From Candidatus Spyradenecus sp. (GTDB lineage Bacteria > Verrucomicrobiota > Kiritimatiellia > RFP12 > DVOR01): a stretch of DNA of 64,000 nt. The stretch lies in NCBI GenBank assembly GCA_045634445.1, contig JAZRAG010000078.1:36-64035 (forward strand), read 5' to 3'. The notes under the pieces are model-generated. The model searched no databases. It was not told the DNA's origin and saw only the letters and a program-made list of their open reading frames with translations. The translations under genes and the position numbers were made by a program. This document shows, piece by piece, positions 30,108 to 49,052 of this stretch (positions are counted from its first letter, which is position 1; the number at the start of each line of letters is the position of its first letter).

Positions 30108-31658
30108 TTAATGCACTTTCGTATGGGGCGGTAGCTCAGTTGGTAGAGCACCACGTTCGCAACGTGGGTGTCGGCGGTTCGACTCCGCTTCGCTCCACCA
30201 TACAGGAAGAGATGATGAATGAGACGGGTTTTGCCCGTCTTTTTTTGTTTGGAAAGCCTGTAAATTCAGGCTTAGGGCAGACGTGAGGGAGTTGTTGCTG
30301 GAGTTAGAATACGGGGTGACGTGTTTATCCTTTGAAACGGACAAAAGGCCGAAAACGAGAGCCAGGAATGATTGGCGGGCTTGGGGTTGGAGATGTTGCA
30401 GTAAACCCGATGGAGACCTTAATTTTTCAAGGTTTTGCTGGTATTGCGTGATGGCTTTATTGATGCGATATTCCGCATTAATTGGAGAGTTAGACTTTTC
30501 CGTTATGGTTCGGCGGTATTCGGCCGCCTTTCGTTCGTAGGTGGCGTCGTCAATCTTGCCGTCCAGATAGGCATCTGTGAGCTTATCGAGGCGCGTTTGG
30601 GCTTGCGCAACTTCTTTTTCGGCAACGTTTTTTGCCGTGCGTTCGTGGGCGATGATTTCTTTCGCCTTTACCCTGAAAATCTCAATCGCCTTTCCAAGGG
30701 CTTGCATCAGAATTGGCAATTGGTCCAACAGTTCGCGGATTTGTTCGCCGATGATACGATTGCTGACGTTGATATGGTTGTGGCGGCACTTGTAATACAG
30801 GTGACCTTTCGAGCGGTAACCTACTAAGGGCGTGCCGCATTCAGCGCAGATGAGCAAGCCGTGGAATTCCGGAGGATCTGGCACGCGGTGTTGGACGCGC
30901 TTATTGGCCAGGATGACTTCGCGTTCCTCCGGCGTAATCATGCCAGGGAATGCAGCTGGAATTGGTTGGCCGCCTGTGATAGTGCCGCAGATGATACCGG
31001 CGTAAATGTGGCGAGATGGTATTGCGACCGCGCGCTTCGGTGGGATTCCCAGGGATTCACACGTGGCATAATATTGCGCCTTGGTAATGATGCCAGCCGC
31101 GAGAGACTTGAGGGCGTGCTGAAGGATGCGGCCTTTGTCGGTAATCTCAAGAATGGGTAGGCCATCGGGCGCTTTGGTGATTTTGAAGCCCATTGGCGCT
31201 TTGTAGCACCAGCCTCCGCGCATGGCGGTCTCTACCATGCCACGCTTGCAACGGTCTGCGCGTTGCTGATTGTCAAACTGTGCGACCGATAGCAGGAGCG
31301 TGGAGACGAGCTCGCCCACAGGGTCCTGCGTGATGTTTTCGGTGGCCGAAAGCACGTCTGTGCCGTGCTTCTTTAGGGTGGTGCGTAAAACGAGACCGTC
31401 TGAAGTATTGCGAGAGAGTCTATCAAGCTTCCAAACGACAAAGGCGGTCGGTTTTTCGCGTGCGCAAAACTCTAAAGCCTCTTTTAGTGCAGGGCGGTTT
31501 GCGGTTTTTGCCGAAACACCGGCGTCGGTAAACGTGCGAATGACAGAGAGGCCCTGCCGATGGGCAAAAGCCAGGCAATCATTCAGCTGCGAGTCAAGAG
31601 ATGTGCCCGTGACCTGCTCCTCTGATGATACGCGCGTGTATACTACTGCCGTCTTCAT
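30108..31658 (-). CDS. Large serine recombinase (integrase); lysogen form runs antisense through the tRNA
   Basis: YTRVSS catalytic motif, VWKLDRLSRN, recombinase domain, CAECG..YYKC zinc ribbon, coiled coil. Confidence 0.95.
   Translation of the reverse strand: MKTAVVYTRVSSEEQVTGTSLDSQLNDCLAFAHRQGLSVIRTFTDAGVSAKTANRPALKEALEFCAREKPTAFVVWKLDRLSRNTSDGLVLRTTLKKHGTDVLSATENITQDPVGELVSTLLLSVAQFDNQQRADRCKRGMVETAMRGGWCYKAPMGFKITKAPDGLPILEITDKGRILQHALKSLAAGIITKAQYYATCESLGIPPKRAVAIPSRHIYAGIICGTITGGQPIPAAFPGMITPEEREVILANKRVQHRVPDPPEFHGLLICAECGTPLVGYRSKGHLYYKCRHNHINVSNRIIGEQIRELLDQLPILMQALGKAIEIFRVKAKEIIAHERTAKNVAEKEVAQAQTRLDKLTDAYLDGKIDDATYERKAAEYRRTITEKSNSPINAEYRINKAITQYQQNLEKLRSPSGLLQHLQPQARQSFLALVFGLLSVSKDKHVTPYSNSSNNSLTSALSLNLQAFQTKKDGQNPSHSSSLPVWWSEAESNRRHPRCERGALPTELPPHTKVH
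30125..30200 (+). tRNA. tRNA-Ala(CGC)
   Basis: 76-nt cloverleaf; anticodon arm CCACG-TTCGCAA-CGTGG; G3:U70 identity pair; encoded CCA. Confidence 0.97.
30194..30202 (+). other. attL core TCCACCATA
   Basis: Identical 9-mer at 61737..61745; overlaps the tRNA 3' end. Confidence 0.85.
30222..30247 (+). terminator. Phage-supplied intrinsic terminator for the tRNA
   Basis: AGACGGG-TTTT-GCCCGTCT hairpin followed by a T-run. Confidence 0.8.
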
Positions 31659-32125
31659 TCGTGCAGCGCCTTAACAGTTTCACGTTTTTTGGGGATGAAT
31701 GTGGGGAAACATTTGTCGCAGACGATGCCTGAAATTTGCTTACCTTCGTAAAGTGCTGAGTGCGCATTCCTGCGAGGCTTCCATTTTTCGCAGACGCAAC
31801 AACAGAAGCGCGTGCCACCTGAAGCGAACGCGCGCTCAACGGAATACGCCTTGTTACTGGTCGCATCTTCTTCTTCTTCAACCATGTATGCGACGGTGGC
31901 AAAAGCTTCGGCCTCTCTTTGCGCTTTGCGTTCGCGCTTTTCGGCGATGACTCTTTTGCGATATTTCCGGTAACGACAAAGGACTGTCAACGTGAGCAAG
32001 GCAAAGACTGCCACGACAACGGCATCACCGGTCTTTTCACCCTTTGCGAACATTGCGACAGAACCTGCGGAGAATATCAGCAACAGAGTGGCCAGAAAAG
32101 TTTGAATGATGAACGATAAAATCAT
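31655..32125 (-). CDS. Two-TM membrane protein with C-terminal Cys-rich putative Zn finger
   Basis: Two hydrophobic segments; CCCVC...VCDKC. Confidence 0.7.
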   Translation of the reverse strand: MILSFIIQTFLATLLLIFSAGSVAMFAKGEKTGDAVVVAVFALLTLTVLCRYRKYRKRVIAEKRERKAQREAEAFATVAYMVEEEEDATSNKAYSVERAFASGGTRFCCCVCEKWKPRRNAHSALYEGKQISGIVCDKCFPTFIPKKRETVKALHE

Positions 32126-32231
32126 GGCAAGACTCCTTTTCCTCTTTTAACGGGTATAGTTTAGCATTTTTTGAGTGTGTAGGAATATACCGAAAAAGTG
32201 AAAAAAGGTTAAAAAAAGTATATTTTTTTAG

Positions 32232-32261
32232 TTGACATAGGTTTAACAAACCTGTTACAAT
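32232..32261 (+). promoter_or_regulatory. Rightward early promoter with embedded operator
   Basis: TTGACA-18 bp-TACAAT; palindrome AGGTTT-AAC-AAACCT in the spacer. Confidence 0.75.
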
Positions 32262-32290
32262 AGCGCCGTTTTCGAGAAAGGAGTACGAAA

Positions 32291-32512
32291 ATGGCTAACA
32301 TGCCGGACGTTAATAAGGTAATTCGGTCAGTTCAGATTCCGCTTGAACTGATGGCACGCCTTAGGAAGTTGGCAGAGGCACGTCAGATGACGGTGGGTCA
32401 GTTGATCAACTTTATTTTGCATGAGCAGCTGGACCACATTGCCCTGGATGAGAGTGACTACGAATGGATTAAAAACGAGGTGCGAAAGAATGAAGAAAAG
32501 CGAAAAGTTTGA
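32291..32512 (+). CDS. Ribbon-helix-helix DNA-binding protein (Arc/CopG-like)
   Basis: RSVQIPLELMARLRKLAEARQMTVGQLINFIL pattern. Confidence 0.7.
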   Translation: MANMPDVNKVIRSVQIPLELMARLRKLAEARQMTVGQLINFILHEQLDHIALDESDYEWIKNEVRKNEEKRKV

Positions 32513-32597
32513 TTTAACCCTTACCATGGAAGACGCGGCGAAGATTCGCCGCGTTGGTAAGGGAGAGGATGCTGATATTCTTTTTATTTTGTCCGAG

Positions 32598-32640
32598 GGT
32601 TTAACAAACCTTGAATTTAGCACTAAGGGTTTAACAAACC
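32598..32640 (+). promoter_or_regulatory. Two further operator copies GGTTTAACAAACC
   Basis: 32598..32610 and 32628..32640. Confidence 0.8.
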
Positions 32641-32716
32641 CGAAAGAACAGGTCGTTCGCATCTAAGTGACGCAAGGGTGCGTCACATGCCGAAACAGGA
32701 AGAAAGGAATAGAGTC

Positions 32717-32839
32717 ATGAAAGAGTTTTGTTTGTTGGTTTTGATGGTTTTCTGGTTGCCGGTGATTTTTCCGCTGGCGGTTGTTGGCGGTTGGATTTTC
32801 ACGGTTGACAAGCAGCGCGCAAAGCAGGAGATGCAGTAA
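32717..32839 (+). CDS. Small membrane protein (40 aa)
   Basis: Manual translation MKEFCLLVLMVFWLPVIFPLAVVGGWIFTVDKQRAKQEMQ; GGA upstream. Confidence 0.55.
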   Translation: MKEFCLLVLMVFWLPVIFPLAVVGGWIFTVDKQRAKQEMQ

Positions 32840-32957
32840 TAGCACTTTTCCCGCTGCACGTGCCCAGTAAAGTAAAAGCGTACAGTTGTTTCATCATCAG
32901 GCTCACGGGTGTGAGCCGCACGTGCAGCGGGGTTTATTTTTTGAAAGGAGCAGAAAA

Positions 32958-33257
32958 ATGGTCAACAACAATGCAGAAGCAGCAGAATGCGATGAACAGT
33001 TCATCGTCGGGATTGGCGTGCAGCTAAAAGGAACGAGCGCCTCCTTGGCGATTGTCAAGAAGGAATATACAAAAGAAGATAAGCGCACGGCGCTTGGTGA
33101 TTGGATTCGGCGCGACCTTCTGCAACGCATCGCGGATGTTGTCTTCACCATGTACGCGTCGCGCCTTCATGCGATGGCTGGTGGTGACACACGTGAAGCG
33201 AAGCTTGACTGGCTGGTCGAAGAAGTAGAAAAGCTTCAAAAGCGTGGGGAGAATTGA
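32958..33257 (+). CDS. Phage hypothetical protein
   Basis: ATG after AAGGAG within track ORF 32886..33257. Confidence 0.6.
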   Translation: MVNNNAEAAECDEQFIVGIGVQLKGTSASLAIVKKEYTKEDKRTALGDWIRRDLLQRIADVVFTMYASRLHAMAGGDTREAKLDWLVEEVEKLQKRGEN

Positions 33258-33709
33258 CGATGAGCAATGAAGAATCAACGATGACCGGTGAAGTGACGGG
33301 GTTTGTTCTACCCGGACTTTCACCCGATGCGTATATCACGGTTTTTGGTTGCGTCGAAGAGCTCCGCGCCTTCCCTGAGCGCATGCTTCTGCGCAATCGT
33401 GAGCTCACAGAGCATTTGGCATTTGCGCGAATTATGAAGTTGCGGAATCTCCTTCAGCAGGTGCGATGGATTGCGCATGGTCGCGGCATGATCGTCTTGG
33501 CGCTCGATAGCGACACATTGGAGACGTCGGAGGAACGTCTGGCGTTGGCCGATACCCTGCGCAGCGTGGCGAATGCGTTGGATGATTTCGAACCGTGCGT
33601 GCCGTGCACTTGGGGCATCGAACGTGAGGCGCTCAACGTGATGATGGATCAGCTCTTGCGTACTTACATGGCCACGGTGTCAGCAGATGAGATTGGGAAG
33701 AAGATATGA
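33254..33709 (+). CDS. Phage hypothetical protein
   Basis: Overlapping-operon context. Confidence 0.6.
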   Translation: MTMSNEESTMTGEVTGFVLPGLSPDAYITVFGCVEELRAFPERMLLRNRELTEHLAFARIMKLRNLLQQVRWIAHGRGMIVLALDSDTLETSEERLALADTLRSVANALDDFEPCVPCTWGIEREALNVMMDQLLRTYMATVSADEIGKKI

Positions 33710-33903
33710 AGATAAAAGAAGAGTATGTGATGCGGACAATTCGCTTTCCGGTATCGGTCTATGACCGATTGGAAGCGCTTCGGGCAGAGCGTTGCATGAC
33801 AGTGACATCGTTGGTTTTGGCGGCTTGCGTTAAAGAATACGGACGCGTAGAAATGGTGGCAACGGAAGCGGTTCGCCCGCGATTCCCGGAGGATGATGAA
33901 TGA
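33706..33903 (+). CDS. Ribbon-helix-helix protein
   Basis: RTIRFPVSVYDRLEALRAERCMTVTSLV. Confidence 0.65.
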   Translation: MKIKEEYVMRTIRFPVSVYDRLEALRAERCMTVTSLVLAACVKEYGRVEMVATEAVRPRFPEDDE

Positions 33904-34067
33904 TGCGTCTGCGTGATTGGGTGCGCGTTTGGTCGCGCCGTTGGTTCGGCGATAGCAGTCTTTGGGAGCTTCTCGCATGGGCCGTTCTACTCCTGTGGAG
34001 TTTCTTGTTGATTCTCGTGTGCGTCATTATCGCCTACGCGGTGATTTTCGCCCTGGTGAACATGTGA
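33900..34067 (+). CDS. Small membrane protein (55 aa)
   Basis: Manual translation; start and stop overlap the neighbouring genes on both sides; long hydrophobic stretch. Confidence 0.55.
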   Translation: MMRLRDWVRVWSRRWFGDSSLWELLAWAVLLLWSFLLILVCVIIAYAVIFALVNM

Positions 34068-34408
34068 TGAAGTATGGTCCGTTCCACATTCCGCTCAGGG
34101 TCAGGCGCGTACCTGCGCCGTATCGCAACACGTCGGAATATATCGACTGGTGTGCGACTCAATTCGGGGCTACGTGGAGCAACGGCGGCAAGCGTAGAAG
34201 CCTCACGCCGATGCGGACGGACTTTGAATGCCCGAAATGGCATGAGTGGTTTGTGGAGACCTATGATTGGTACGTTCTGACGGAATGCCCACGGTGGCAT
34301 AAGCTCAACTGCTTCACCACGAAAGTTGACGCTGTTGCATTCTGTGAGCGGTGGCGCGAACAAGAACGCGCCGATGAGATGGCCATGATTTTGGCAAGGA
34401 AGCGATAA
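34067..34408 (+). CDS. Phage hypothetical protein
   Basis: ATG overlaps the preceding TGA; 3' part of track ORF 33962..34408. Confidence 0.55.
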   Translation: MKYGPFHIPLRVRRVPAPYRNTSEYIDWCATQFGATWSNGGKRRSLTPMRTDFECPKWHEWFVETYDWYVLTECPRWHKLNCFTTKVDAVAFCERWREQERADEMAMILARKR

Positions 34409-34419
34409 GGAGTAGAAGG

Positions 34420-35085
34420 ATGAAAAAGTACAAGCTGACGGAAGAGACGATCAACTTTCGCGGGCATAAATTGCACCGCATTCGCGCTTTGCGCAATTTC
34501 AGCGACGTCAAAAAAGGAGATCTCGGCGGCTTCATCGAAAGCGAGAGCAATCTCGCTCACGAAGACGACTGCTGGGTCTACGGCGATGCGCGGGTCTACG
34601 GCAATGCGCAGGTTTTCTGCGATGCGCGGGTTGGGCACAATGCGACGGTCTACGGAGATGCGCTTGTCCGCGATCAGGCGCGGGTCAACGGCAATGCGGA
34701 GGTCGGCGGCAATGCGTGGGTCGGCGAAAATGCGCGTATCTTTGAGAATGCGTGGGTCCACGACAATACGTCTGTCGGCGGCAATGCGTATATCTTCGGC
34801 AATGCGTGTTTTTCCGGCTATGCGCGGGTCTTCAGCGATGCGCAGATCGAACGAACAAGCGAGTACGTTGTTTTCAAGAATTGGTGGAGCAGCGGTCGCT
34901 ACTTCACGTGGACGCGCTCAAATAACATGTGGTGCGTTGGCTGTTTCTGCGGAACAGGCGAACAACTAATCGCAAAAGCCTACAACGACAGTGAAGAATC
35001 GGGCCGCGAGTATGAGCGCGTGGTCAAGTATGTTGAAAGCATTCTTGCCGATGCAAGAACGAATAAAAAAGGCGGTGAGGAATGA
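34420..35085 (+). CDS. Phage hexapeptide-repeat (left-handed beta-helix-like) protein
   Basis: KYKLT..RIRAL..DLGGFIESE then (GNARVY)n repeats. Confidence 0.85.
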   Translation: MKKYKLTEETINFRGHKLHRIRALRNFSDVKKGDLGGFIESESNLAHEDDCWVYGDARVYGNAQVFCDARVGHNATVYGDALVRDQARVNGNAEVGGNAWVGENARIFENAWVHDNTSVGGNAYIFGNACFSGYARVFSDAQIERTSEYVVFKNWWSSGRYFTWTRSNNMWCVGCFCGTGEQLIAKAYNDSEESGREYERVVKYVESILADARTNKKGGEE

Positions 35086-35282
35086 GTATTGAAAGTTTAC
35101 AGGATGAATTGCTCCACGAAGAGGTTTTCATTTCTCAGAAAATCTACGAGATGCGGAGCAGTTTAGAAAATGAGACAAACCTCGGTAAATTGGCCCTGGG
35201 CATAAAGGAAGTCGCGCGTCTCGAAGGCTTGCAGGAAGGCATTGAAGTCGCAAGGCTGAAAATAAAAAAGCACATTGGGTGA
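35082..35282 (+). CDS. Phage hypothetical protein
   Basis: ATGA overlap with the upstream gene. Confidence 0.55.
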   Translation: MSIESLQDELLHEEVFISQKIYEMRSSLENETNLGKLALGIKEVARLEGLQEGIEVARLKIKKHIG

Positions 35283-35672
35283 AGGAATCAAATTGCTATT
35301 GGCTGACCGTTGGCCATGCTTGGGATGCAAACAACGGTAGAGCGAGCGAGACGATTAGCGACGGCCGCGCGAAAAACCTCAATTGCTCCCTGTTGCGGAG
35401 GGTAAAGCCTGACACGGGCCCGCTGAAGTGTAGACCAGGACAGCGCCTGTCGGAGGCGCTGAACGTCCACGGTAGTTACCTCGCTATCGGTCGCCAATGA
35501 GGGAGATCAGGAACAGAATCTGGCACGTGACGACGTGCTTTTAGCAAACCTGGGAGCAGATGGCCGTTATCTGCGATCGTAAAACGGCAACGGTGGATAA
35601 TTCGCACATGGGTCTGCGCCTCACCTATCACCGAAAAGGCGCAAATCTTTATCAAAGAAAGGAAACGAAGAA

Positions 35673-36737
35673 ATGGACATCAAAATGTCAGAACTGATTG
35701 AGGCTTTTTCTGCGCGGTTTAACTACGCACAGAAAAAGATTGGATTAAACGCAGGAAAGAAGTACGAGCAGCGTTGGATTGACTCGTGCGATCACGCGAG
35801 AAAAGTGCTCAACTGGTGCCATGAACACGACAAGCCAGACTTGCAGATCTGTCTTGTAGCAGAAGCAGCAGAGGCAAACCCAGTGGCCGTGACGCTTTAT
35901 CCCCCGGTGGAATCGCAAGACGAATTGGTGAAAGCCACGGCCGATTTGCCTTTTGAAGCAGCGTCTGAGGAAATCGCAGACGAAAATGAAGAAGTGGAAG
36001 AAGCAGATAGATCTGAAGAAGCAGAAGAAATGAAAGACGAAAAATCGTTGCCGTCAATTCCTTACGTCTATCTTCAACAAGAGTGTCGGGAGATCTTAAC
36101 TGAAGGATGCCCGGCGCACTTTATTTTTTCCAATAAGCTCCGCAAGGCTGCACTGGAAGCGATTGCAGACGCGCGCCGTGATCAGTGCGTGCCGTCCATG
36201 CACAAAGGCCTTCCCGTGGAACGATTGGCGGCTGCATTGATCGCCGCTGCATGCGTTGGTTTGTCGGCCTCTTCGAACGGCCACATGAAGGCAATCAATG
36301 CGGCAGGCTTTGAGCGTCTCTTCGATGACGGCCCGCACGATGAAGAGTTGGGCGCGATTAAGTGCATGCGTGACGGTGAGAGTGTTCGTTTGAGCATTAC
36401 ACGTGGCGCAATGTTTGACGCTTTTTTCGGTAAGGCGGCCGAATACTATGGCGTGGCCACTCTTGAGATGCGTCACAGAGTAGTGGAGAACGTGCAGGGG
36501 TTGCGTTGCCCGGAGACTTACCCGAACTATCTGCTGGCTGTAAAGCTGCCGTGCCTTGACTGTGGCGATCTTGACTCGGCGCACATCGCCATGCGCAGCA
36601 ATAGCCTGTCGATGCCGGTTGCCAAATGCCTCAACGATGAGTGCTTTGCAATGTGCAAGGTGCACGGCCCGCTCGAAGGGTTCGCAAAGCGTCGCATTGC
36701 ACAGGCGATTAAATTGAGCTACGAACGCCTGTTGTGA
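35673..36737 (+). CDS. Putative RecT/Red-beta-like single-strand annealing protein
   Basis: LAAALIAAACVGLS..., acidic linker, position in the replication module; by-eye resemblance only. Confidence 0.45.
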   Translation: MDIKMSELIEAFSARFNYAQKKIGLNAGKKYEQRWIDSCDHARKVLNWCHEHDKPDLQICLVAEAAEANPVAVTLYPPVESQDELVKATADLPFEAASEEIADENEEVEEADRSEEAEEMKDEKSLPSIPYVYLQQECREILTEGCPAHFIFSNKLRKAALEAIADARRDQCVPSMHKGLPVERLAAALIAAACVGLSASSNGHMKAINAAGFERLFDDGPHDEELGAIKCMRDGESVRLSITRGAMFDAFFGKAAEYYGVATLEMRHRVVENVQGLRCPETYPNYLLAVKLPCLDCGDLDSAHIAMRSNSLSMPVAKCLNDECFAMCKVHGPLEGFAKRRIAQAIKLSYERLL

Positions 36738-36819
36738 TGACTTAGCCCTGCGCCGTGCCAGGAAGGAACATTGCACGGCACCCCCTTTTCTTCAGCAATA
36801 AAAAACAAGGAAATAACCC

Positions 36820-37104
36820 ATGGAAGAACAAACAACAAAGCGTGAATGGAAGCCCGGCACGGGCGGCCTTTACCGAAACAGCTACAAGCCTGAAGGCGAT
36901 CACAAACAGCCAGCCATGCGCGGCACGATCTGCTTGCCAGACGGCAAGATCTATCGCATTGCCGCGTGGACGCGATTCAATTCCGTCAACGGGGACAAGT
37001 ATCTTTCGTTGCGCATCGAAGATGAAGCGACCTGGCAAAAGGCTCGTGAAGCTGCAAAGGCCGAACGTGCGCTTGCACAGGATGAAGAAGATTTGCCCTT
37101 CTAA
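36820..37104 (+). CDS. Small phage protein, possible ssDNA-binding OB fold
   Basis: P..RGTI..DG..YRIAAW...KYLSL, acidic DLPF tail typical of SSBs. Confidence 0.55.
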   Translation: MEEQTTKREWKPGTGGLYRNSYKPEGDHKQPAMRGTICLPDGKIYRIAAWTRFNSVNGDKYLSLRIEDEATWQKAREAAKAERALAQDEEDLPF

Positions 37105-37218
37105 GGCGTAGCATGGCAAGCGCATCTACAGAGGTAGAAGACACCTGCGCGTTCGTAGATGCGCTTGCTGACGCTTTGGCTGCTTTGTTGATTGAAGATC
37201 TAAAAGAAAGCTTAAACA

Positions 37219-39888
37219 ATGACGCTTGACGAATTAGTCGCTCAGCATTTCGCGGGCGAAAAACACCGCAAAGAAGGCCGTGGCCACTATATGGTGTGTT
37301 GCCCGATCCACGGTGACTCGAATCCCTCTATGAGCCTAACAGAGGGCGATAATGGCAAAATCCTGGTGAAATGTTTTGCGTGTGGTGCTGGTGCTCAGGA
37401 ATTGGCTGACCATTTAGGGTTGAGCATGTCAGACTTCATGGGGCCGAAGACGGAAAAGCCGTTGAGCGATTGGGAAGTCAAGGTCGGGCGCTTTGTGTGT
37501 CAGTACGATTATACGGACGAAGACGGGAACATCCTCTTTTCTAAAGAGCGCCGCGTCAAAACTGACGGATCTAAGACGTTTTTGCAGAAGATTCCCGCGC
37601 CTCCCGGAAGCGTTCACAAATGGAAATATGGAAGCGTCGTCAAGTACTTGGCTGAACGCAAGATGAAGCGTCCGCTTTATCGCCTGAAGGATCTGCTTTT
37701 CGCCGTGCGCACGGGTAAGCCTGTGTGGTTTGTTGAGGGCGAAAAGGACGTGGAGACGCTGCGTGATCTTGGCCTTGAAGCCACGACAACGGTTGACGGT
37801 GCCGGAGGGGGTTGGGAAGAGCATTATTCCGCTTGGTTCGATGGCGCGAAGGTTGTTTATATCGTCCCCGATAACGATAAGCCACCGGCGAATAAAAACG
37901 CAAAGGGTTGGCAAGGTCAGCAATTCGCCGTGGTTAAGCGTGCAGCACTGACTGAACGTGGTGTGAATTGTTTCGTGGTGGAGCTTCCAAGTGTGGTGCT
38001 TGGTAAGTCTGTTAAGGATATGACGGACTTCTTTGATGCCGGGGGAACTGTTGAGGAATTGGAAACACTTGCCCGTGCAGCAGAAGTGACAGAATGGCTT
38101 CCACCGTGGGCACGTTCTGACGCGCCAGAGATTCCTGATGCAGTTGATGCGGAATCGGTGACGAAAACGAGCGCAAAAAGCGAGAAGGTTTTACAGCGTT
38201 CGTGGAAGAATGAAGAGTTGCCGCTGGAGACGCGTCTACAGGCTTTTGCGGATTGGCTGAAGTACCGCATTGAAAAGCGTGACGATACAATCGCCTGGTG
38301 CGTCTCTCAGATTTTGCAGCTCGATTGGAAGGGTGTGCGCGAGATTGCGCGCTCGAAGCTCCTTGCGCAAACCGTGGTGGCGTGGTTGAATCACGTCGGG
38401 CGTTTGTACTATCACAGCGTGCATCGTGACTTTGCGACGGAGATGTTCTTTCTACACGCAGATAAAACGCTCTGCACGGTGGCCAGTGATTGGTTCTCAT
38501 CGTGGGTGTCGCGCCATACTGGCATTAACCGTGAAGATGCGAGATTCAAGAAGATCCGTGCGGCCATTCAGGATGAAGCGTTGCAGGGCGAATCGGCCGT
38601 TGGTGTGACGCCAGAGTACTTCTTCGCCCGGCGTGACGGGGCGATCTATATCAGTTGCGGGGTCGGCCAGATGGCAAAGGTAACCGGCGGCCGTGTTGAG
38701 ATGGTCGACAACGGGACCGATGGCGTACTGTTCAGTGTTGAAAAGGTCCTGAAGCCATGGAGGCTGACCAAAACGCCGCGCGATCCGTTTAGTACGTGCC
38801 AATTGTGGACAGGCATGGAAACGACTGCGCAGCAGAGGTTGTTGTTTAAGCTGTGGGCGTTGTGCCTTCCGCACATGTTAGAGGCGAAACCGCCAATCTC
38901 GATGAGCGGTGGCGCGGGCTCAGGCAAGACGGCCGTGGTGCGTGGTTTGTTCAGGTTATTCGGGCTTGAGCAACGTAATGTCTCCGTAGATCCGGGAGAC
39001 AAAGGCGAAAATGCGCTTTGGGTGCAGCTGCACGCGGGCGGCTTGCTGTTGCTGGATAACGTGGATATCGCGGTCAAGTGGTTTGCAAACAGTCTTGAAG
39101 CGGCGTCCACCGGCGCAACGAAAGAAGTAAAGCGCTTGTATACTGACGCGGAAATCGCGCAGCTTGTGCCGCGCGCTAACATCGCGATCACGTCTCTGCG
39201 GTCGCTGTTCGCCTCTTCCCAGGCGTTATCTGACCGCATGATACATATCCACCTCGAACGTGTCAGCGGCAAGGAAACAAAGGAATCGTCTCTCTATCAT
39301 GAGATTGAAGCTTGTCGTGACGATGCGATGACGTTCGTGGCGCAGACGATTGCGAAGGTGTTGGCCGATGATAGCCCGGCGCAGCACGTCAACCGTCGTC
39401 ACCCTGACTGGGGCGCAATTGCCGTCAAGACGGGTAGGGCGCTCGGGATTGAGGAGCAGGCCGTCAAGGCATTGCAGGCCGCCGAAATGGATAAGTACGT
39501 CTCAAATCTCAAGAGTGACGCATTCGGTGAAATGGTGATGCGGTTGGTACGTCAGCCGATGACGGTGGACGCAGCTCACTTTGCCGAATTGATTAAGCGT
39601 GAGTATGGCGAAGACTATTATCGCAGGGCAGGTTGGAACCCTGTGAAGGTCGGAAAGTCTATCGAACGCCTCTCGGAATCGCTAAAAATCTTGTATCAAT
39701 TGAGCAAGAAATTTTCACGTGGAAAAGCCATTTATTCGTTGGCTCCGTCGCAGATGATGTTGGATGAACTTCAAGATGACACCGACGCTTCCGCGCCTTC
39801 CAATTCTGAAGAGTCACCAACAAACTCTTCAAACTCAACCACTTACGCAGATTATGGTGAAGAAGATGACGTGTTCGAGATTCTTTGA
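37219..39888 (+). CDS. Primase-helicase (Zn finger + TOPRIM + P-loop NTPase)
   Basis: CPIHGD..C..C, FVEGEKD, VPDND, GGAGSGKT, LLLDN. Confidence 0.85.
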   Translation: MTLDELVAQHFAGEKHRKEGRGHYMVCCPIHGDSNPSMSLTEGDNGKILVKCFACGAGAQELADHLGLSMSDFMGPKTEKPLSDWEVKVGRFVCQYDYTDEDGNILFSKERRVKTDGSKTFLQKIPAPPGSVHKWKYGSVVKYLAERKMKRPLYRLKDLLFAVRTGKPVWFVEGEKDVETLRDLGLEATTTVDGAGGGWEEHYSAWFDGAKVVYIVPDNDKPPANKNAKGWQGQQFAVVKRAALTERGVNCFVVELPSVVLGKSVKDMTDFFDAGGTVEELETLARAAEVTEWLPPWARSDAPEIPDAVDAESVTKTSAKSEKVLQRSWKNEELPLETRLQAFADWLKYRIEKRDDTIAWCVSQILQLDWKGVREIARSKLLAQTVVAWLNHVGRLYYHSVHRDFATEMFFLHADKTLCTVASDWFSSWVSRHTGINREDARFKKIRAAIQDEALQGESAVGVTPEYFFARRDGAIYISCGVGQMAKVTGGRVEMVDNGTDGVLFSVEKVLKPWRLTKTPRDPFSTCQLWTGMETTAQQRLLFKLWALCLPHMLEAKPPISMSGGAGSGKTAVVRGLFRLFGLEQRNVSVDPGDKGENALWVQLHAGGLLLLDNVDIAVKWFANSLEAASTGATKEVKRLYTDAEIAQLVPRANIAITSLRSLFASSQALSDRMIHIHLERVSGKETKESSLYHEIEACRDDAMTFVAQTIAKVLADDSPAQHVNRRHPDWGAIAVKTGRALGIEEQAVKALQAAEMDKYVSNLKSDAFGEMVMRLVRQPMTVDAAHFAELIKREYGEDYYRRAGWNPVKVGKSIERLSESLKILYQLSKKFSRGKAIYSLAPSQMMLDELQDDTDASAPSNSEESPTNSSNSTTYADYGEEDDVFEIL

Positions 39889-39889
39889 C

Positions 39890-39997
39890 GTGGTGGGGGT
39901 TGTTGGGGTTAGAGGCCACTTTCGCAAACTTCCTACTTTTTTCAATTATTTTTTATTTTTTAAAAAGATAGGAAAACACCTCCACCACCTCCACCAC
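39890..39997. other. Putative phage replication origin
   Basis: Imperfect inverted 9-bp-periodic repeats (39890..39910, 39977..39997) around an AT-rich core, directly after the primase gene. Confidence 0.5.
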
Positions 39998-40059
39998 ATG
40001 GACGGCGGCCCTTTGGATCAGATTGGATGCAGCAGGTTCGTTCTGCCGGCCCCCCTGAG

Positions 40060-40070
40060 CGGGTCCTTTC
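40060..40070 (+). other. cosQ-like packaging signal CGGGTCCTTTC
   Basis: Matches the lambda cosQ context as I recall it; lies upstream of the terminase gene. Confidence 0.55.
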
Positions 40071-40150
40071 GCCCGTTCGTTCCACTCCTTACCCCGCTCG
40101 TCACACCACGGGAGTGTGAGTGACTAACGTTGTGAAGTGTTTTTGTTTGG

Positions 40151-40708
40151 GTGAAATTTATGTTGACGCAAAAATTGTTGCTAAAAAAAATCACGGGGAA
40201 AGAGGCGCGGCGGGTGGCGACGGCGGTGGCGTCGGCGGAGTTTGCCGGGGAGCTCCGGCGGCTGCGTCGTGCGGTTCGCCGTTCAATCGTTCAGGCGGGC
40301 TCGCACATTAAGCGAGAGCTTCCAGACGTGCGCCTGATGCGGTGCCGCATGGCGCTCGGTCTTGTGGTGCCTGCACGATTCGTCTGGAGCGGCATGGAAG
40401 GGCTTCGACTGTCTGACCGTGTAGGGCGGTGGTACTTCATCACTCCGACGGATCAGGGCGCAATCTACTTGCCTGATTGGTCTTTCGGGAATTGGTCGCT
40501 GACGCGCATGGGCGTGCAGATTGTTGACCGCTTTTGTGACAATTCCTTTTCACGAAATGCCACTGCGCTCCACGCGTCTCTAACTGCGCGCTCTAAAAGA
40601 TGGACGGCCATATACACGTCTCTGCCAGCCTCTGCCACGGTCGGTGATGCCGTGCGCCTTTACTCTGAAGATATAGTCACAGGATGCCTTGATCATGGAA
40701 TTTTCTGA
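40151..40708 (+). CDS. Phage hypothetical protein (terminase small-subunit position)
   Basis: Positional only. Confidence 0.5.
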   Translation: MKFMLTQKLLLKKITGKEARRVATAVASAEFAGELRRLRRAVRRSIVQAGSHIKRELPDVRLMRCRMALGLVVPARFVWSGMEGLRLSDRVGRWYFITPTDQGAIYLPDWSFGNWSLTRMGVQIVDRFCDNSFSRNATALHASLTARSKRWTAIYTSLPASATVGDAVRLYSEDIVTGCLDHGIF

Positions 40709-42968
40709 CTGTGCCCATTATCGCAAAATTCGCGCCACGCTTGACCGTGGCCGTCCGTTCACGGCCGATCAAGTCCGTGAGCTCCAACGCATTGCGCCGC
40801 CGGATCTGTCGCTTCTGCTTGCCCGGTCCGCTGACATTGCCCGTGCGCGCCTCGCTTCTGGTGGCAAGCTTACGGCCGCCTACCGTGAAGCGCTCGAACT
40901 AATAGACCCGTCCTATTCTGCACCGGCGGCCGCCTCTCCACGCTCCACGGCTGAACGCGTCCGCGATCATGTCGAACGGTCCAATGACATCGGCGCGCCG
41001 CCTCCATGCGTTAATCCTTCGCGTCGTGAATTGTGCCGCCTCGACCTCGTTGCCTTCGGCCAAATCTACTGCGCCAATCTCCTCGATCATCCTCCGTCTG
41101 AGAAGATGCAAGAATTTATCCGCGCCATGGCTGCAACAATTCTCACGGGCGGCAAACTCCATGTGCGCCTTCCTCGTGGCAAGGGGAAAACAACCTGGAC
41201 GAAAATCGCCATGCTCTGGTCGGCAGCTTTCGCACACCGGCGCTTTTTGGTCGTTATCTCTGCCACCGTCGCAGACGCTCAAAGCATCATCGCTGACTGC
41301 CTTGCGGTCCTTGATTCGTCCGAAGAATTCCTGGAGGACTTTCCTGAGATTGCTCATCCGTTTCACGCACTCGAAGGAATTGCACAACGGTGTGCCTCGC
41401 AACACATCTCCGGCGTTCGCACCGATATCGAAATCACCGGCGTGCGCATCACGCTGCCTACCGTCGCGGGCTCCAAGTCCTCAGGCATTACGCTTCGCGC
41501 ACGTGGCGTCAAGGGGTCGCTCCGTGGCCTCGTCGCTGGCCGTCAACGTCCTGACTTCGTCTTCCTTGATGACCCGCAAACCCGCAAAGATGCGTCGTCA
41601 GCTTCCGAGACGCAGAAGTTTATCTCTGTCGTCCGCGGTGATATTGACGGCCTCGCTGGCCACAATCGCGCAATGGCCACAATCATCGCCACCACGCCCG
41701 TCGCGCCCGGTGACGGTTCATCGCGCCTCGCTGACCAAGAAGAATTTCCAGACATTCGCACGATGACGGTGCCCCTGATTCTGTCCATGCCCAAGCGCCT
41801 CGACCTTTGGGATGAATTCGTCAATCGTTTCCGCGCCGATGCCATTGCCGGTGACCTTACGCACGCAGACTCCCGTGCATTCTACGTCGCCAATCGTGAG
41901 GCGATGGATGACGGTTGCGAAGTCCTCGACCCGCTTGACGGTGACCCGCTCACTGAAGAGTCGGCCATTCACCATGCCTTTGTCCGGCGCTGCACGCTCG
42001 GAGAGACCGCCTTCAACGCTGAATACCAGATGATTGTCGCACGCCCCGATGCGTCATTTGCGCTTGACCCGTCCTTTGTTGCCCGCCGCCTCAATGGATA
42101 CCCGCGTGCCACAATTCCGCTCCTCTGCGGTGAGTGCGTGGCCTTTTGCGACGTCAACCTTGAAGCAGGTCTCCGTTGGGGCATCCTCTCCGTCGGACGT
42201 CGCAACGTTGCCGCCCTCGTGGCCTATGGCCGTTATCCAGAAGTCGGGCGCCTCGCGCCAGAAAACGCCACCGAAACCGAAATCTCCTCCGCACTTGCAG
42301 CAGGACTGGCCGCCGTGACGCGTATCGTGGCGGCCACGCATCTGTCTTTCAACACACACCGCAAGATGCCGCAAGCCCTGGTCTTTGACGGCGGCTTCCA
42401 AACGCCTGTTGTCGCTGCCTACTGCGCCACCGCTCGTGCGCCTTTTAAGTTGGCTTGGGCAAAGGGTTTCGGCGGTTCCAATTATCGGCCCTCCGACAAA
42501 ATCGCACAACCCGGCGACCATGTTCACGCGTCAGCCTCCGAGAATGGTGTATTTCTTGCCGTTTGTGCAGACTACTGGCGTGAATACATGCAGCGCGCCT
42601 TGCTTGCAGAACCCCTCCAGCCTGGCTCGCTGTCCTTCTACGGCCATGACCCGATAGAGCACGCCCGCCTCGCGGACGAAATCGCAGCCGAAACGCTCGA
42701 AGAAAAACGCGCCATGCCAAACGGAAAGACGTCCTGGCGTTGGTCGGTCAACGGTCCAAACCACTACGGCGACGTTGTTTCCAGCTGTTTCGCCGTTGCG
42801 TCTTGGTATCGCCTTCTCGCGCCCGCCGAAACGCTTGTGTCTGACGCACTTCTGGAACAGGCTACCGCCGAATCGCCGCCAATTCCTGCGCCGCGCATGC
42901 TTCCGAGCTTCACCCAACGTCCTCAGCCGCGGTTCTGTTCCAAGTTCCGCGCTGCTCCACGCCGTTAA
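40689..42968 (+). CDS. Terminase large subunit (GpA-like)
   Basis: PRGKGKTT Walker A, FLDDPQ Walker B, FCDVN nuclease Asp, NHYGD C-terminal motif. Confidence 0.9.
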   Translation: MIMEFSDCAHYRKIRATLDRGRPFTADQVRELQRIAPPDLSLLLARSADIARARLASGGKLTAAYREALELIDPSYSAPAAASPRSTAERVRDHVERSNDIGAPPPCVNPSRRELCRLDLVAFGQIYCANLLDHPPSEKMQEFIRAMAATILTGGKLHVRLPRGKGKTTWTKIAMLWSAAFAHRRFLVVISATVADAQSIIADCLAVLDSSEEFLEDFPEIAHPFHALEGIAQRCASQHISGVRTDIEITGVRITLPTVAGSKSSGITLRARGVKGSLRGLVAGRQRPDFVFLDDPQTRKDASSASETQKFISVVRGDIDGLAGHNRAMATIIATTPVAPGDGSSRLADQEEFPDIRTMTVPLILSMPKRLDLWDEFVNRFRADAIAGDLTHADSRAFYVANREAMDDGCEVLDPLDGDPLTEESAIHHAFVRRCTLGETAFNAEYQMIVARPDASFALDPSFVARRLNGYPRATIPLLCGECVAFCDVNLEAGLRWGILSVGRRNVAALVAYGRYPEVGRLAPENATETEISSALAAGLAAVTRIVAATHLSFNTHRKMPQALVFDGGFQTPVVAAYCATARAPFKLAWAKGFGGSNYRPSDKIAQPGDHVHASASENGVFLAVCADYWREYMQRALLAEPLQPGSLSFYGHDPIEHARLADEIAAETLEEKRAMPNGKTSWRWSVNGPNHYGDVVSSCFAVASWYRLLAPAETLVSDALLEQATAESPPIPAPRMLPSFTQRPQPRFCSKFRAAPRR

Positions 42969-43144
42969 AATCGTCATCTTTTCGCCCTTTTTCAAGGGCG
43001 TTTTCTCTCGCGTGCGCGCGTTTGCGTGAAAAAAGTTTGCGAAATCAACCACTTATGCAGAGTCTGCATGTCATGTTTGACACACAGATTTCTTTTTGCG
43101 TTTTGCCTGTGCTTTAATGAAGGCGTTGAAAGGCAGAAACGCGC

Positions 43145-43429
43145 ATGTCCGAAAAAATCGTCTTCAAAAATCTCACCCCGTCTGAACGCCTCCAGGCGCT
43201 CGAAGCGGCGCGTCAACGTATGAACGCCATTGCTTCCGCGATTGACGCCATTGTCGGCGGTGCAGTCTCTGCCACGGTGTCCACCGCGGGCGGTTCGCGC
43301 TCTTACACCCGCGCTTCGCTCTCTGAGTTGCGTCAACTCTACGCCGCCTCTGTGCGTCAATACAAAAATCTGCGCAAGTCTCTCTCCGGTCAATCCGCAT
43401 TTCGTCGCCTCTGGGCACGCTGGTCTTAA
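43145..43429 (+). CDS. Head-tail joining protein (gpW-like)
   Basis: GGSRSYTRASLSELRQL; between terminase and portal. Confidence 0.7.
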   Translation: MSEKIVFKNLTPSERLQALEAARQRMNAIASAIDAIVGGAVSATVSTAGGSRSYTRASLSELRQLYAASVRQYKNLRKSLSGQSAFRRLWARWS

Positions 43430-43431
43430 CA

Positions 43432-45012: not shown

Positions 45013-45048
45013 CCCCTTTCTCTCACAGCTCAGTTACTCCTTAGTACG

Positions 45049-46227
45049 ATGACCAACACAATTAATATATCCGGAATGATTGCGCCCGCTGACCTCTTCG
45101 GCTTGCGTGATTTCCTTTCGCCTGGCTCTGCTACGTTTCCGCAAGACGTTGATGCAGCGCTTCAGAAATGCAGCACAGACGAAGATATCACGCTCCGCAT
45201 TGACAGCCCCGGCGGCTATTGTGACGCAGGGAATGCGATGATTATTGCTTTGCGCGATTGGGAGCGCACCAACGGCCGCAAGATCAACGTCGAAGTCGGT
45301 GCTCAGGCTGCATCGATGGCCGCTTGCATGATGTTCAGCTTCTCGGGCACGATTAAGGTGCACCGCAATTCGCTCGTAATGCTCCACGGTGCGCGCTTTG
45401 ATTCTTTCGGTGAAACGTGGGTCGCAGAGGCGCTCCGTGACGCTGCCGATTCGCTCGATGTGATCAACGATATCATGATTGACACGGTCGCCGAAAAGAC
45501 CGGCAAGTCGCGCGAAGAAGTTGCCGAATGGGTCCGCGGTTCGAAGGAGACTTTTTTCGGCGCTCGCAAACTGCTTGATAAACAATTGATTGACGGAGTG
45601 ATTGACGCAGCTCCGTCCGCAACGCCCGTCTCTCCCGTGGCGTTGAATGCGTTCTCGCGTCTGTCCGCATGCAAGCGTGACGGTGGCATACTCGCCGCCG
45701 TTGCATTTGCTTCGCTTAACAAGGAGGCCGTCATGGCTGATGATGATAAGAAGCCGGAGGAAGAGACTCCCGCGGAAACCACTCCAGCAGAGGAGACGCC
45801 TCCTGCTGAAGAGAAGCCCGCAGAAGATACTCCTCCCGCTGAAGAAAATCCTCCAGCAGAGGAAGAAAAACCCGCTGAGGAAGAAGAAAAGCCCGCAGAG
45901 GATGATGATAAGGCGCTCGCCGATACCATCGCGTCCGCTGTTCAGGAGGCTGTCACGGTTGCATTGGCTGACGCCAACGCTGAAATCGCCACCCTCAAGG
46001 CCAAGCTTGAAGCCGCAGAATTGCGTGCACAGAAGGCTGAAGGCACTTTGCGTGGTATCACCGCTGCGCGTGGCAAGCCGCTCCAACTCCCCACCGCGCC
46101 TGCCGTTTCTACTGCATCGAAAGATGTAAAGGCTGAATGGCAGAAGGCTGTCCGTGAGCATGGCTTGCAGGCCGCGATGAAGAAGTTCCCCGATCTTTTG
46201 GCCGCCGTGCGTTCGGCTGCTAAGTAA
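45049..46227 (+). CDS. ClpP/S49-type prohead protease with acidic PAEE-repeat scaffold
   Basis: IDSPGG, AASMA Ser motif, MLHG; (PAEE)n tract. Confidence 0.88.
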   Translation: MTNTINISGMIAPADLFGLRDFLSPGSATFPQDVDAALQKCSTDEDITLRIDSPGGYCDAGNAMIIALRDWERTNGRKINVEVGAQAASMAACMMFSFSGTIKVHRNSLVMLHGARFDSFGETWVAEALRDAADSLDVINDIMIDTVAEKTGKSREEVAEWVRGSKETFFGARKLLDKQLIDGVIDAAPSATPVSPVALNAFSRLSACKRDGGILAAVAFASLNKEAVMADDDKKPEEETPAETTPAEETPPAEEKPAEDTPPAEENPPAEEEKPAEEEEKPAEDDDKALADTIASAVQEAVTVALADANAEIATLKAKLEAAELRAQKAEGTLRGITAARGKPLQLPTAPAVSTASKDVKAEWQKAVREHGLQAAMKKFPDLLAAVRSAAK

Positions 46228-46264
46228 ACAAAACAACCCCAAAAACTCAAATAGGAGAAAACCT

Positions 46265-47206: not shown

Positions 47207-47243
47207 CCGTTTCCATAGTAGTACAGTTCCATCGGGTAGGTTT

Positions 47244-47292: not shown

Positions 47293-47305
47293 CGGAGGCT
47301 TTGGA

Positions 47306-49028: not shown

Positions 49029-49052
49029 ACACAGCAAAAAAGGACTCACAAA

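What the first reader, a model, noticed from the sequence alone, without database searches (positions are those of the whole stretch)
30108..30260. attP lies inside the integrase gene: integration swaps the recombinase C-terminus
Seen: in the prophage the ORF crosses attL and ends ...PVWW-SEAESNRRHPRCERGALPTELPPHTKVH*, which is the antisense of tRNA-Ala. Joining the ends at TCCACCATA gives ...PVWW-TNVAKGLTLEDVEAAVNIMGKIVALLECA*, using 61737 down to 61648. That stop abuts the bidirectional terminator at 61615-61648, and the tail looks like a real amphipathic helix. Known: Mx8 integrase and the BPs repressor are altered by integration at an intragenic attP. Inference: a serine-integrase version of this switch, in which the two forms differ in activity, stability or directionality. 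No separate RDF is recognisable.
Basis: partly seen in the sequence, partly recalled or inferred. Interest (0 to 1): 0.8.

Follow-up and report, generated by a model that had tools for sequence, protein, structure and literature searches.

The report
Serine integrase gene spanning its attP
A prophage sits in a tRNA-Ala gene, and its serine integrase gene runs across the phage attachment site, so integration replaces the enzyme's conserved C-terminal helix with a peptide read from the antisense strand of the tRNA; the same layout recurs in a large, apparently undescribed group of tRNA-targeting serine integrases.

Summary

**Anatomy in the window**
- A 31.5-kb tailed prophage (30203-61736) lies at the 3' end of tRNA-Ala(CGC).
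- It is flanked by the 9-bp core TCCACCATA, at 30194-30202 and 61737-61745.
- The large serine recombinase ORF (30108-31658, minus strand) crosses attL and ends in antisense tRNA.

**Independent junctions**
- One public contig (L001) carries the intact attP. It encodes the predicted 517-aa free form, 87% identical, ending ...LWWTNVAKSLTLENVEAAVNIMGKIVALLECA.
- Another contig (L008) carries the empty attB.

**Clade-wide pattern**
- In 59 of 80 related genomic loci, from several phyla, the integrase ORF ends antisense inside a tRNA gene.
- About two thirds of the closest database representatives are this integrated isoform.
- Free forms instead carry a Trp-anchored amphipathic helix. AlphaFold2 models it with pLDDT 67-83, against about 50 for the prophage tail. 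Free forms also often end in Ala-Ala.
- The disordered linker before the core encodes, on the opposite strand, a terminator for the restored tRNA.

**What is not shown**
Any functional difference between the isoforms is inferred, not shown. No recombination directionality factor (RDF) was identified.

**Novelty**
New variant of a known kind. Mx8 and SSV integrases and the BPs repressor are the precedents, and none involves a serine integrase.

The parts
30125..30200 (+). Host tRNA-Ala(CGC). Its last 7 nt (TCCACCA) fall inside the 9-bp core, so the gene is intact after integration.
   Evidence: ARAGORN. The tRNA is identical in the empty-site contig L008.
30194..30202 (.). attL core TCCACCATA, the region of identity that contains the crossover.
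   Evidence: The L001 alignments to the two prophage ends overlap on exactly these 9 bp.
30108..31658 (-). Prophage-form large serine recombinase gene, 516 aa.
   Evidence: ORF list. Pfam Resolvase E=1e-32. AlphaFold2 plus Foldseek match to full-length serine integrase structures 9y66, 9dxh, 9iu2, 9rah and 4kis.
30108..30194 (-). Prophage-specific tail: codons 489-516 (SEAESNRRHPRCERGALPTELPPHTKVH) plus the stop, read antisense through the tRNA.
   Evidence: Translation. AlphaFold2 pLDDT 47-52.
30203..30260 (-). Phage-side arm of attL and a disordered Ser/Asn/Pro-rich linker of Int (residues about 465-486).
   Evidence: AlphaFold2 pLDDT <50 for residues 465-488 of P0002.
30221..30248 (+). Phage-supplied intrinsic terminator for the tRNA. 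It is encoded antisense inside the int coding sequence (peptide TKKDGQNPS).
   Evidence: Terminator scan. Fold -13.6 to -15.2 kcal/mol. A comparable hairpin plus T-run follows 47 of 67 tRNAs of related loci, most of them tRNAs overlapped by int.
30203..61736 (.). Prophage body, about 31.5 kb, of a tailed phage.
   Evidence: PHROGs hits to primase, large terminase, portal, head protease, tape measure and an Arc-like repressor. Boundaries set by L001 and L008.
61648..61736 (-). Free-form tail segment: codons 489-517 (TNVAKGLTLEDVEAAVNIMGKIVALLECA) plus stop. In the prophage it is separated from int by 31.5 kb.
   Evidence: It is contiguous with int in L001/P0002. Helix in AlphaFold2.
61737..61745 (.). 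attR core TCCACCATA.
61615..61648 (.). Bidirectional terminator. It ends free-form int on the minus strand and the 102-aa gene 61304-61612 on the plus strand.
   Evidence: Fold -20.9 and -15.0 kcal/mol, z about -5.6. The equivalent hairpin in L001 has a perfect stem.
61750..61800 (+). Native terminator of tRNA-Ala, displaced to attR by the insertion.
   Evidence: Fold -20.2 kcal/mol, z -4.1. It lies directly after the tRNA in the empty site L008.

Best explanation
**Shown: anatomy**
- A temperate tailed phage integrated into the 3' end of tRNA-Ala(CGC) using a large serine recombinase (LSR). Its attP lies inside the 3' end of its own gene.
- The circular phage encodes a 517-aa Int. It comprises the LSR core (catalytic, recombinase and zinc-ribbon domains plus coiled coil, to about residue 450), a disordered linker, and a C-terminal Trp-anchored amphipathic helix.
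- The linker's DNA carries attP and, on the other strand, a terminator for the tRNA.
- Crossover within TCCACCATA removes the helix and fuses 28 residues of antisense tRNA.
- It follows that only the free form can carry out attP x attB, and only the prophage form is available for attL x attR.

**Inferred: function**
- The helix is a regulatory module of the integration-competent isoform. It most likely docks on the enzyme or on a partner to tune synapsis or directionality.
- In part of the clade the tail also ends in an ssrA-like Ala-Ala, which would make the free form short-lived.
- Losing the helix on integration leaves a differently regulated isoform that excises with an RDF not yet identified.
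- The swap also changes the 3' end of the int mRNA. The free form ends at a strong terminator. The prophage form runs head-on into the tRNA gene.
For: **Anatomy**
- attL and attR are in the window.
- attP is contiguous in L001 and encodes P0002.
- The empty attB is in L008.
- The prophage has phage structural and replication genes.
- LSR fold: Pfam, AlphaFold2 mean pLDDT 88.5, Foldseek E about 1e-13 to full-length serine integrase complexes.

**Clade-wide layout**
- In 59 of 80 related loci from species-representative genomes the int ORF ends antisense in a tRNA gene. The tRNAs are Ala, His, Val, Glu, Pro, Met, Arg, Leu, Asp and Ser.
- About 100 of the 146 fetched sequences among the 150 best-scoring 50%-identity cluster representatives (all E<1e-141) have antisense-tRNA tails.
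- General LSRs from viral contigs rarely do, about 3 of 60.

**The tail is functional coding sequence**
- 5 synonymous against 2 non-synonymous changes, binomial p=0.013.
- pLDDT 67-83 for the free tail against 47-52 for the prophage tail.
- Motif W-x-x-h-x-x-x-h in 28 of 68 free forms against 1 of 140 integrated forms, p=6e-15.
- Free tails are more amphipathic than their own shuffles, mean z 1.35.
- Ala-Ala end in 16 of 68 free forms against 1 of 140 integrated forms, p=6e-8. This is not explained by terminator stems.

**RNA level**
- Terminators.

**Precedents**
- Mx8 (PMC6070905) and BPs (PMC4557955).
Against: - No experiment bears on either isoform.
- The window phage ends ...ALLECA, and its nearest relatives end VGV, LVV, AVG and AAG, not Ala-Ala. 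The degron reading is therefore weak for this particular phage.
- Only about 40% of free forms match the strict helix motif, and tail lengths vary from 14 to more than 40 aa.
- AlphaFold2 confidence for a lone helix does not show that it docks. No PAE or coordinates were available.
- All catalytic and DNA-binding domains lie upstream of the swap, so both isoforms could be equally active.
- Free and integrated forms were classed partly by peptide pattern and by hand.
- The tail lies in a DNA block that is 92% identical between the window and L001, against 81% for int. Part of its conservation may therefore reflect block history or constraints from the attP arm.
Confidence: 0.6

Rival explanations
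1. Neutral overlap. attP sits in the 3' end of int only because tight linkage and compaction are favoured. Both tails are dispensable appendages and the isoforms behave alike.
For: - The LSR core ends by about residue 450, and the segment around the core is predicted disordered.
- Prophage tails are whatever the antisense tRNA happens to encode.
- Free tails vary in length and sequence, and many end in polar residues.
Against: - Free-form tails share a Trp-anchored amphipathic helix across phyla: 28 of 68 against 1 of 140.
- Synonymous changes exceed non-synonymous ones in the tail.
- The helix is modelled confidently.
- Ala-Ala ends are enriched.
- The layout is kept in a clade spanning at least five phyla.
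Confidence: 0.2
2. The swap acts mainly by proteolysis, as with the BPs repressor. The free-form tail is a C-terminal degron (ssrA-like or non-polar end), so Int is short-lived before integration. The prophage isoform lacks the degron and is stable.
For: - 16 of 68 free forms end in Ala-Ala against 1 of 140 integrated forms.
- The last two residues are small or non-polar in 28 of 68 free forms against 9 of 140 integrated forms.
- The terminal Ala codons are not part of hairpins.
- In BPs the viral-form repressor carries an ssrA-like tag that integration removes, and BPs Int also has a C-terminal proteolysis signal (PMC4557955).
Against: - This phage ends in ECA, and its near relatives end in V or G.
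- Most free forms in the unbiased sample do not end in Ala: 27 of 34.
- A degron needs only a few residues and would not need a conserved helix of about 25 residues.
Confidence: 0.25
3. The relevant change is in the RNA. It resembles lambda sib retroregulation, or transcriptional interference. Integration swaps the 3' end of the int mRNA, from a strong terminator right after the stop codon to a read-through transcript that collides with tRNA transcription and meets the tRNA terminator head-on.
For: - The free-form stop abuts a -20.9 kcal/mol terminator.
- In the prophage no terminator follows int, and the tRNA and its phage-supplied terminator lie convergent inside the ORF.
- The antisense terminator is widespread in the clade, found at 47 of 67 tRNA-adjacent segments of related loci.
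Against: - It does not explain the protein-level conservation of the free tail.
- The antisense terminator has a simpler purpose, which is to end tRNA transcription.
- It is absent from the Patescibacteria loci, which still keep the overlap.
- It does not exclude the protein-level switch.
Confidence: 0.15

Closest known systems
Myxococcus phage Mx8 integrase (intP/intX)
   Same: attP lies within the int coding sequence. Integration creates a recombinant gene with a new 3' end. The enzyme stays active but has altered properties (PMC6070905; cited in PMC4383910).
   Different: - Mx8 Int is a tyrosine recombinase; this one is a large serine recombinase.
- To my knowledge the Mx8 swap replaces a much longer C-terminal segment.
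- No conserved clade-wide tail motif has been described for Mx8.
Integration-dependent immunity of mycobacteriophage BPs (clusters G, I, N, P)
   Same: An intragenic attP means that integration removes a C-terminal extension. The viral-form extension carries an ssrA-like degradation tag. BPs Int is also controlled by C-terminal proteolysis (PMC4557955).
   Different: - In BPs the gene that is cut is the repressor, not the integrase.
- The BPs integrase is a tyrosine recombinase.
- Here only a subset of the clade ends in Ala-Ala, and the window phage ends in ECA.
SSV-type integrases of archaeal viruses
   Same: The recombination site lies inside the integrase ORF, and the targets are tRNA genes (PMC7253208 abstract; PMC4383910).
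   Different: - SSV-type integration splits the tyrosine recombinase gene into two parts.
- Here all catalytic and DNA-binding domains stay in one ORF, and only the last 29 residues change.
Characterised serine integrases (PhiC31, Bxb1, A118/LI, TP901-1, SPbeta)
   Same: Same fold and domain order (Foldseek). Short att sites with a small identity core. No recognisable RDF.
   Different: - To my knowledge these have attP outside the int ORF and target protein-coding or intergenic sites.
[quoted passage not shown]
- I found only one predicted exception, Paracoccus phage Pami6 (PMC6536676).
Lambda sib retroregulation
   Same: An element 3' of int lies beyond attP and is detached by integration, so the free and prophage states express int differently. 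This comparison rests on my own knowledge.
   Different: - sib is a non-coding RNase III site that acts on the mRNA.
- Here the detached segment is coding sequence plus a terminator.

Membership tests
Large serine recombinase (serine integrase) | N-terminal resolvase-type catalytic domain with the catalytic Ser and conserved Arg/Asp residues | tested here: met
   PF00239 at residues 4-150, E=1.1e-32. Y7, R9, S11, D79, R80 and R83 are invariant in alignment A1.
Large serine recombinase (serine integrase) | Recombinase domain followed by a zinc-ribbon domain with an embedded coiled coil | tested here: met
   - Zn_ribbon_recom scores 25.0 bits against a cut-off of 25.3, so it is marginal. PF07508 is not hit in this protein but is hit in homologues.
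- The AlphaFold2 model has long helices at 315-412.
- Foldseek E about 1e-13 to full-length integrases 9y66, 9dxh, 9iu2 and 9rah, and a match to 4kis.
Large serine recombinase (serine integrase) | Simple att sites with a short identity core; excision needs an RDF | tested here: inconclusive
   The core is 9 bp, and no clear dyad symmetry was found. Minimal site size, the crossover dinucleotide and RDF dependence cannot be tested with these tools. No conserved partner gene was found.
Intragenic-attP integrase isoform switch (Mx8 type) | attP inside the int ORF; integration gives an otherwise intact int with a new 3' end | tested here: met
   L001/P0002 compared with the window ORF.
Intragenic-attP integrase isoform switch (Mx8 type) | The two isoforms differ in recombination properties | not testable with these tools
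   Only indirect evidence: the free-form tail is conserved.
Intragenic-attP integrase isoform switch (Mx8 type) | Tyrosine recombinase | tested here: not met
   The enzyme is a serine recombinase. It is therefore an analogue of Mx8 Int, not a member of that family.
Integration-dependent immunity (BPs type) | attP inside the repressor gene | tested here: not met
   attP lies in int. The Arc-like repressor candidate at 32291-32512 is untouched.
Integration-dependent immunity (BPs type) | The viral-form C-terminus is an ssrA-like degron that integration removes | tested here: inconclusive
   The window tail ends in LLECA. Across the clade 16 of 68 free forms end in Ala-Ala against 1 of 140 integrated forms. 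No degradation data exist.
SSV-type integrases | Integration splits int into two separate fragments | tested here: not met
   A 516-aa ORF with all domains persists in the prophage.
tRNA-gene-targeting integrative elements | The element supplies the displaced 3' part of the tRNA, so the gene stays intact | tested here: met
   The tRNA is identical in the occupied site (window) and the empty site (L008). The element also supplies a terminator.

The most novel reading that the evidence does not exclude
The C-terminal swap is itself the directionality switch of this clade. The free form, with the helix, can only integrate. The prophage form, without it, is competent for attL x attR, either with no separate RDF or with the helix acting in cis at the coiled-coil base where RDFs bind. 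Substrate state and enzyme isoform would then be hard-wired together.
Probability: 0.15. Interest if true: 0.9.

Novelty: new variant of a known kind. Interest (0 to 1): 0.72.

Why it matters
1. It extends intragenic attP and integration-dependent isoforms from tyrosine integrases and one repressor family to serine integrases. Here the two isoforms map one-to-one onto the two reaction directions, which makes directionality control directly testable.

2. It documents a large, multi-phylum clade of serine integrases that target tRNA genes. The Islander paper of 2014 stated that serine-family integrases were not known to do this (PMC4383910). The clade may also widen the choice of natural, conserved attB sites.

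3. It has a practical consequence. About two thirds of the database sequences of this clade are the prophage isoform, whose annotated C-terminus is antisense tRNA. Screens that take integrase ORFs from integrated prophages would test the wrong isoform for integration.

4. It is a clear case of dual coding. One DNA stretch encodes a protein linker, the attP site and, on the other strand, a tRNA terminator.

Tried and rejected
- **Dyad symmetry.** A scan of attP and attB around the core gave nothing above noise.
- **Upstream ORF as a conserved RDF.** The ORF at 31655-32125, which overlaps the int start, has no blastp similarity (E<=1e-3) to any upstream ORF in L001 or eight other relatives and no PHROG hit.
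- **Empty site through ribosomal protein S1.** That exact protein is not on record. The look-up through the neighbouring phosphoribosyltransferase worked. Of the eight places returned, only L008 has the tRNA. L004, L006 and L009 did not align to the predicted attB, and the remaining four were not compared.
- **Simple terminator scan.** It missed the hairpin at 61615-61648. Folding confirmed the hairpin.
- **Terminal Ala codons as part of GC-rich terminator stems.** Rejected, except possibly in L110.
- **Misassembly or frameshifted pseudogene.** Rejected, because the free form exists as an independent contig and the layout is clade-wide.
- **Literature.** Ten searches found no description of a serine integrase with an intragenic attP. 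The TIGER paper (PMC7192596), which might report serine integrases at tRNA genes, is not in the held library, so prior mention there cannot be excluded.
- **Known phages.** The nearest phage records are at most 28% identical to this integrase.
Full report
**1. Observation**

ARAGORN finds a single tRNA in the window, tRNA-Ala(CGC), at 30125-30200 on the + strand. On the minus strand an ORF runs from 31658 to 30108 and encodes 516 aa. It has a Resolvase catalytic domain at residues 4-150 (E=1.1e-32) and a marginal Zn_ribbon_recom match at 265-295. Its last 28 residues, SEAESNRRHPRCERGALPTELPPHTKVH, are read antisense through the tRNA.

The 9-mer TCCACCATA occurs only at 30194-30202 and 61737-61745. 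That repeat is weak evidence on its own: the chance expectation is 0.27, and 2 of 100 shuffles give two copies. Joining the ends at the core keeps the frame. It yields a 517-aa ORF ending PVWW-TNVAKGLTLEDVEAAVNIMGKIVALLECA, with its stop at 61648-61650. The stop touches a hairpin at 61615-61648 flanked by A and U runs. The hairpin folds at -20.9 kcal/mol on the int strand and -15.0 on the other.

**2. Independent proof of the junctions**

A protein search returned P0002. It is 517 aa, 87% identical over 100% of the joined query, and ends ...LPLWWTNVAKSLTLENVEAAVNIMGKIVALLECA. Its contig is L001, a 25-kb Logan assembly of ERR9717577. L001 aligns to window 31663->30194 and then, without a break, to 61745->60878. 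The two alignments overlap on exactly the 9-bp core. This is attP.

A contig carrying the exact phosphoribosyltransferase encoded next to the tRNA is L008 (JGI 3300041678). It has the same tRNA-Ala followed directly by the window's right flank and the end of the S1 gene, about 99% identical over 446 nt. This is the empty attB.

The interval 30203-61736 encodes a primase, large terminase, portal, head protease, tape measure and an Arc-like repressor.

**3. The enzyme**

AlphaFold2 on P0002 with a 74-sequence alignment gives mean pLDDT 88.5. The model has these parts:
- catalytic domain and long helix, residues 1-146
- recombinase domain, 158-257
- zinc ribbon, 269-312 and 416-449
- coiled coil, 315-412
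- a segment with pLDDT <50, residues 465-488
- a C-terminal helix, 487-516, with pLDDT 67-83

Foldseek matches full-length serine integrase complexes 9y66, 9dxd and 9dxh, Bxb1 (9iu2), PhiC31 (9rah) and the LI integrase (4kis). The same prediction for the prophage form gives pLDDT 47-52 for its tail.

**4. It is a clade-wide design**

Among the 78 first-round homologues, many end in peptides such as GFEP, GLEP, GIEP, RVEL, DSNP or IRTR. These are the three reading frames of an antisense tRNA T-arm.

In 80 related loci from species-representative genomes, the integrase ORF ends antisense inside a tRNA called by ARAGORN in 59. The tRNAs are Ala, His, Val, Glu, Pro, Met, Arg, Leu, Asp and Ser. The hosts are Kiritimatiellota, Lentisphaerota, Patescibacteria, Flavobacteriaceae, Chitinophagaceae and some Proteobacteria. 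The closest relatives of the window's integrase are in Kiritimatiellota and Lentisphaerota MAGs. That is the only hint, and a weak one, to the host.

A profile search of 1.84 billion cluster representatives found 50,171 proteins at E<=1e-30, a number that includes serine integrases in general. All 150 best-scoring representatives have E<1e-141. Of the 146 fetched, about two thirds carry antisense-tRNA tails and about one quarter carry free-form tails.

A control set of general large serine recombinases from viral contigs almost never shows either feature.

**5. The free-form tail is real coding sequence with a conserved shape**

- Between the window and L001 the 87-nt tail has 5 synonymous and 2 non-synonymous differences. 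The binomial p is 0.013 against a 75% non-synonymous expectation.
- I pooled hand-curated sets of 68 free forms and 140 integrated forms. The motif W-x-x-h-x-x-x-h occurs in 28 free forms against 1 integrated form (p=6e-15).
- The window's tail has this motif (WTNVAKGL). Its Trp is encoded by TGG, the antisense of the tRNA's CCA.
- Free tails are more amphipathic than their own shuffles (mean z 1.35) and than integrated tails (p=0.007).
- Free forms end in Ala-Ala in 16 cases against 1 (p=6e-8), and in Ala in 25 cases against 12. These Ala codons are not part of terminator stems.
- In the unbiased subsample only 5 of 34 free forms end in Ala-Ala. The window phage ends in ECA and its nearest relatives in V or G. 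An ssrA-like end is therefore a feature of part of the clade, not of all of it.

Caveats: the classing rests partly on peptide patterns and on my curation, and the tail lies in a DNA block that is more conserved than int (92% against 81%).

**6. A second layer: dual coding**

Directly after the tRNA in attL lies a hairpin at 30221-30241 followed by a T-run. It sits inside int, antisense, where the protein reads TKKDGQNPS. The tRNA's own terminator is left behind at attR (61750-61800, -20.2 kcal/mol), and it follows the tRNA directly in the empty site.

A hairpin plus T-run of this kind follows 47 of 67 tRNAs scanned in the related loci, most of them tRNAs overlapped by int. These include the Kiritimatiellota and Lentisphaerota relatives and nearly all Bacteroidota loci, but not the Patescibacteria loci. 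The disordered linker of Int is therefore a stretch whose DNA carries attP and a terminator for the restored tRNA.

**7. Mechanism**

Shown: integration swaps a conserved helix for an arbitrary peptide. It also swaps the 3' end of the int mRNA, from a strong terminator to convergent read-through into the tRNA. By construction only the free form can perform attP x attB, and only the prophage form is present for attL x attR.

Inferred: the helix is a regulatory module of the integrating isoform. I favour an effect on synapsis or directionality through docking. Proteolytic instability would be an added layer where the tail ends in Ala-Ala.

Rivals are a neutral overlap, a pure degron and a purely RNA-level effect.

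No RDF candidate emerged. The ORF that overlaps the int start has no detectable protein similarity (blastp, E<=1e-3) to any upstream ORF in L001 or eight other relatives.

**8. Comparison with what is known**

- Mx8 has attP inside the gene of a tyrosine integrase, and integration gives a new 3' end with altered properties (PMC6070905).
- BPs and its relatives have attP inside the repressor gene, and integration removes an ssrA-like tag. BPs Int also carries a C-terminal proteolysis signal (PMC4557955).
- SSV-type archaeal integrases are split by integration.
- The Islander paper notes that Mx8 and SSV integrases extend across attP. [quoted passage not shown]
- I found one predicted serine-recombinase phage at tRNA-Met, Paracoccus Pami6 (PMC6536676).
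- The large serine recombinase survey PMC10083194 does not mention tRNA at all.
- The TIGER paper could not be read.

I therefore rate this a new variant of a known kind: the same logic as Mx8 and BPs, in a different recombinase superfamily, with a tRNA target and a clade-wide conserved free-form tail.

**9. Verdict**

The functional consequence is plausible but untested. Interest 0.72.

Noticed in passing
window 1-19000: A low-GC block (0.30-0.43, against 0.50-0.60 elsewhere). It encodes an SF1 helicase with DUF2726, two GmrSD-type (type IV restriction) proteins, an Eco57I/MmeI-type methylase, a protein with two HATPase domains and an rve transposase. It looks like a horizontally acquired defence island.
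   Followed up: partly
window 30221-30248 (+) and 61750-61800 (+): The phage supplies a new intrinsic terminator for tRNA-Ala from inside the int coding sequence, antisense. The tRNA's native terminator is stranded at attR. Comparable antisense terminators follow 47 of 67 tRNAs scanned in related loci, but are absent in the Patescibacteria loci.
   Followed up: yes
database proteins P0003-P0224; loci L010-L089: About two thirds of the public sequences of this integrase clade are the prophage isoform, whose annotated C-terminus is antisense tRNA (GFEP, GIEP, RIEL, DSNP and similar). This is an annotation hazard for mining integrases.
   Followed up: yes
L030-L078 (Flagellimonas, Maribacter, Allomuricauda and other Flavobacteriaceae): Single genomes carry several copies of these integrases at different tRNA-Arg genes; for example, Flagellimonas pelagia strain 72 has at least five loci. 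L058 in that genome has a free-form tail (…NSNQLIEDLKLLADILAA) within a chromosome contig. That could mean a tandem or excised copy.
   Followed up: no
L154 (IMG/VR UViG_2814123040_000001): This free-form integrase has a tail that contains an antisense T-arm peptide (GIEPTT) and still ends in a helix and AAA. In this lineage attP seems to carry a longer copy of the tRNA 3' part, and the crossover lies deeper in the tRNA.
   Followed up: no
L002-L007, L009: Contigs encoding the identical 191-aa phosphoribosyltransferase (window 29388-29963) have no tRNA-Ala beside it. In L004 the S1 gene sits next to it with a different intergenic region. An identical protein appears in different contexts, and I have no explanation for this.
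   Followed up: partly
window 31655-32125 (-): A 156-aa ORF overlaps the int start codon by 4 nt. By eye, its translation has a hydrophobic N-terminal stretch and a Cys-rich C-terminal part. It has no PHROG hit and no blastp similarity to any upstream ORF in L001, whose region upstream of int also shows no nucleotide match to the window.
   Followed up: partly
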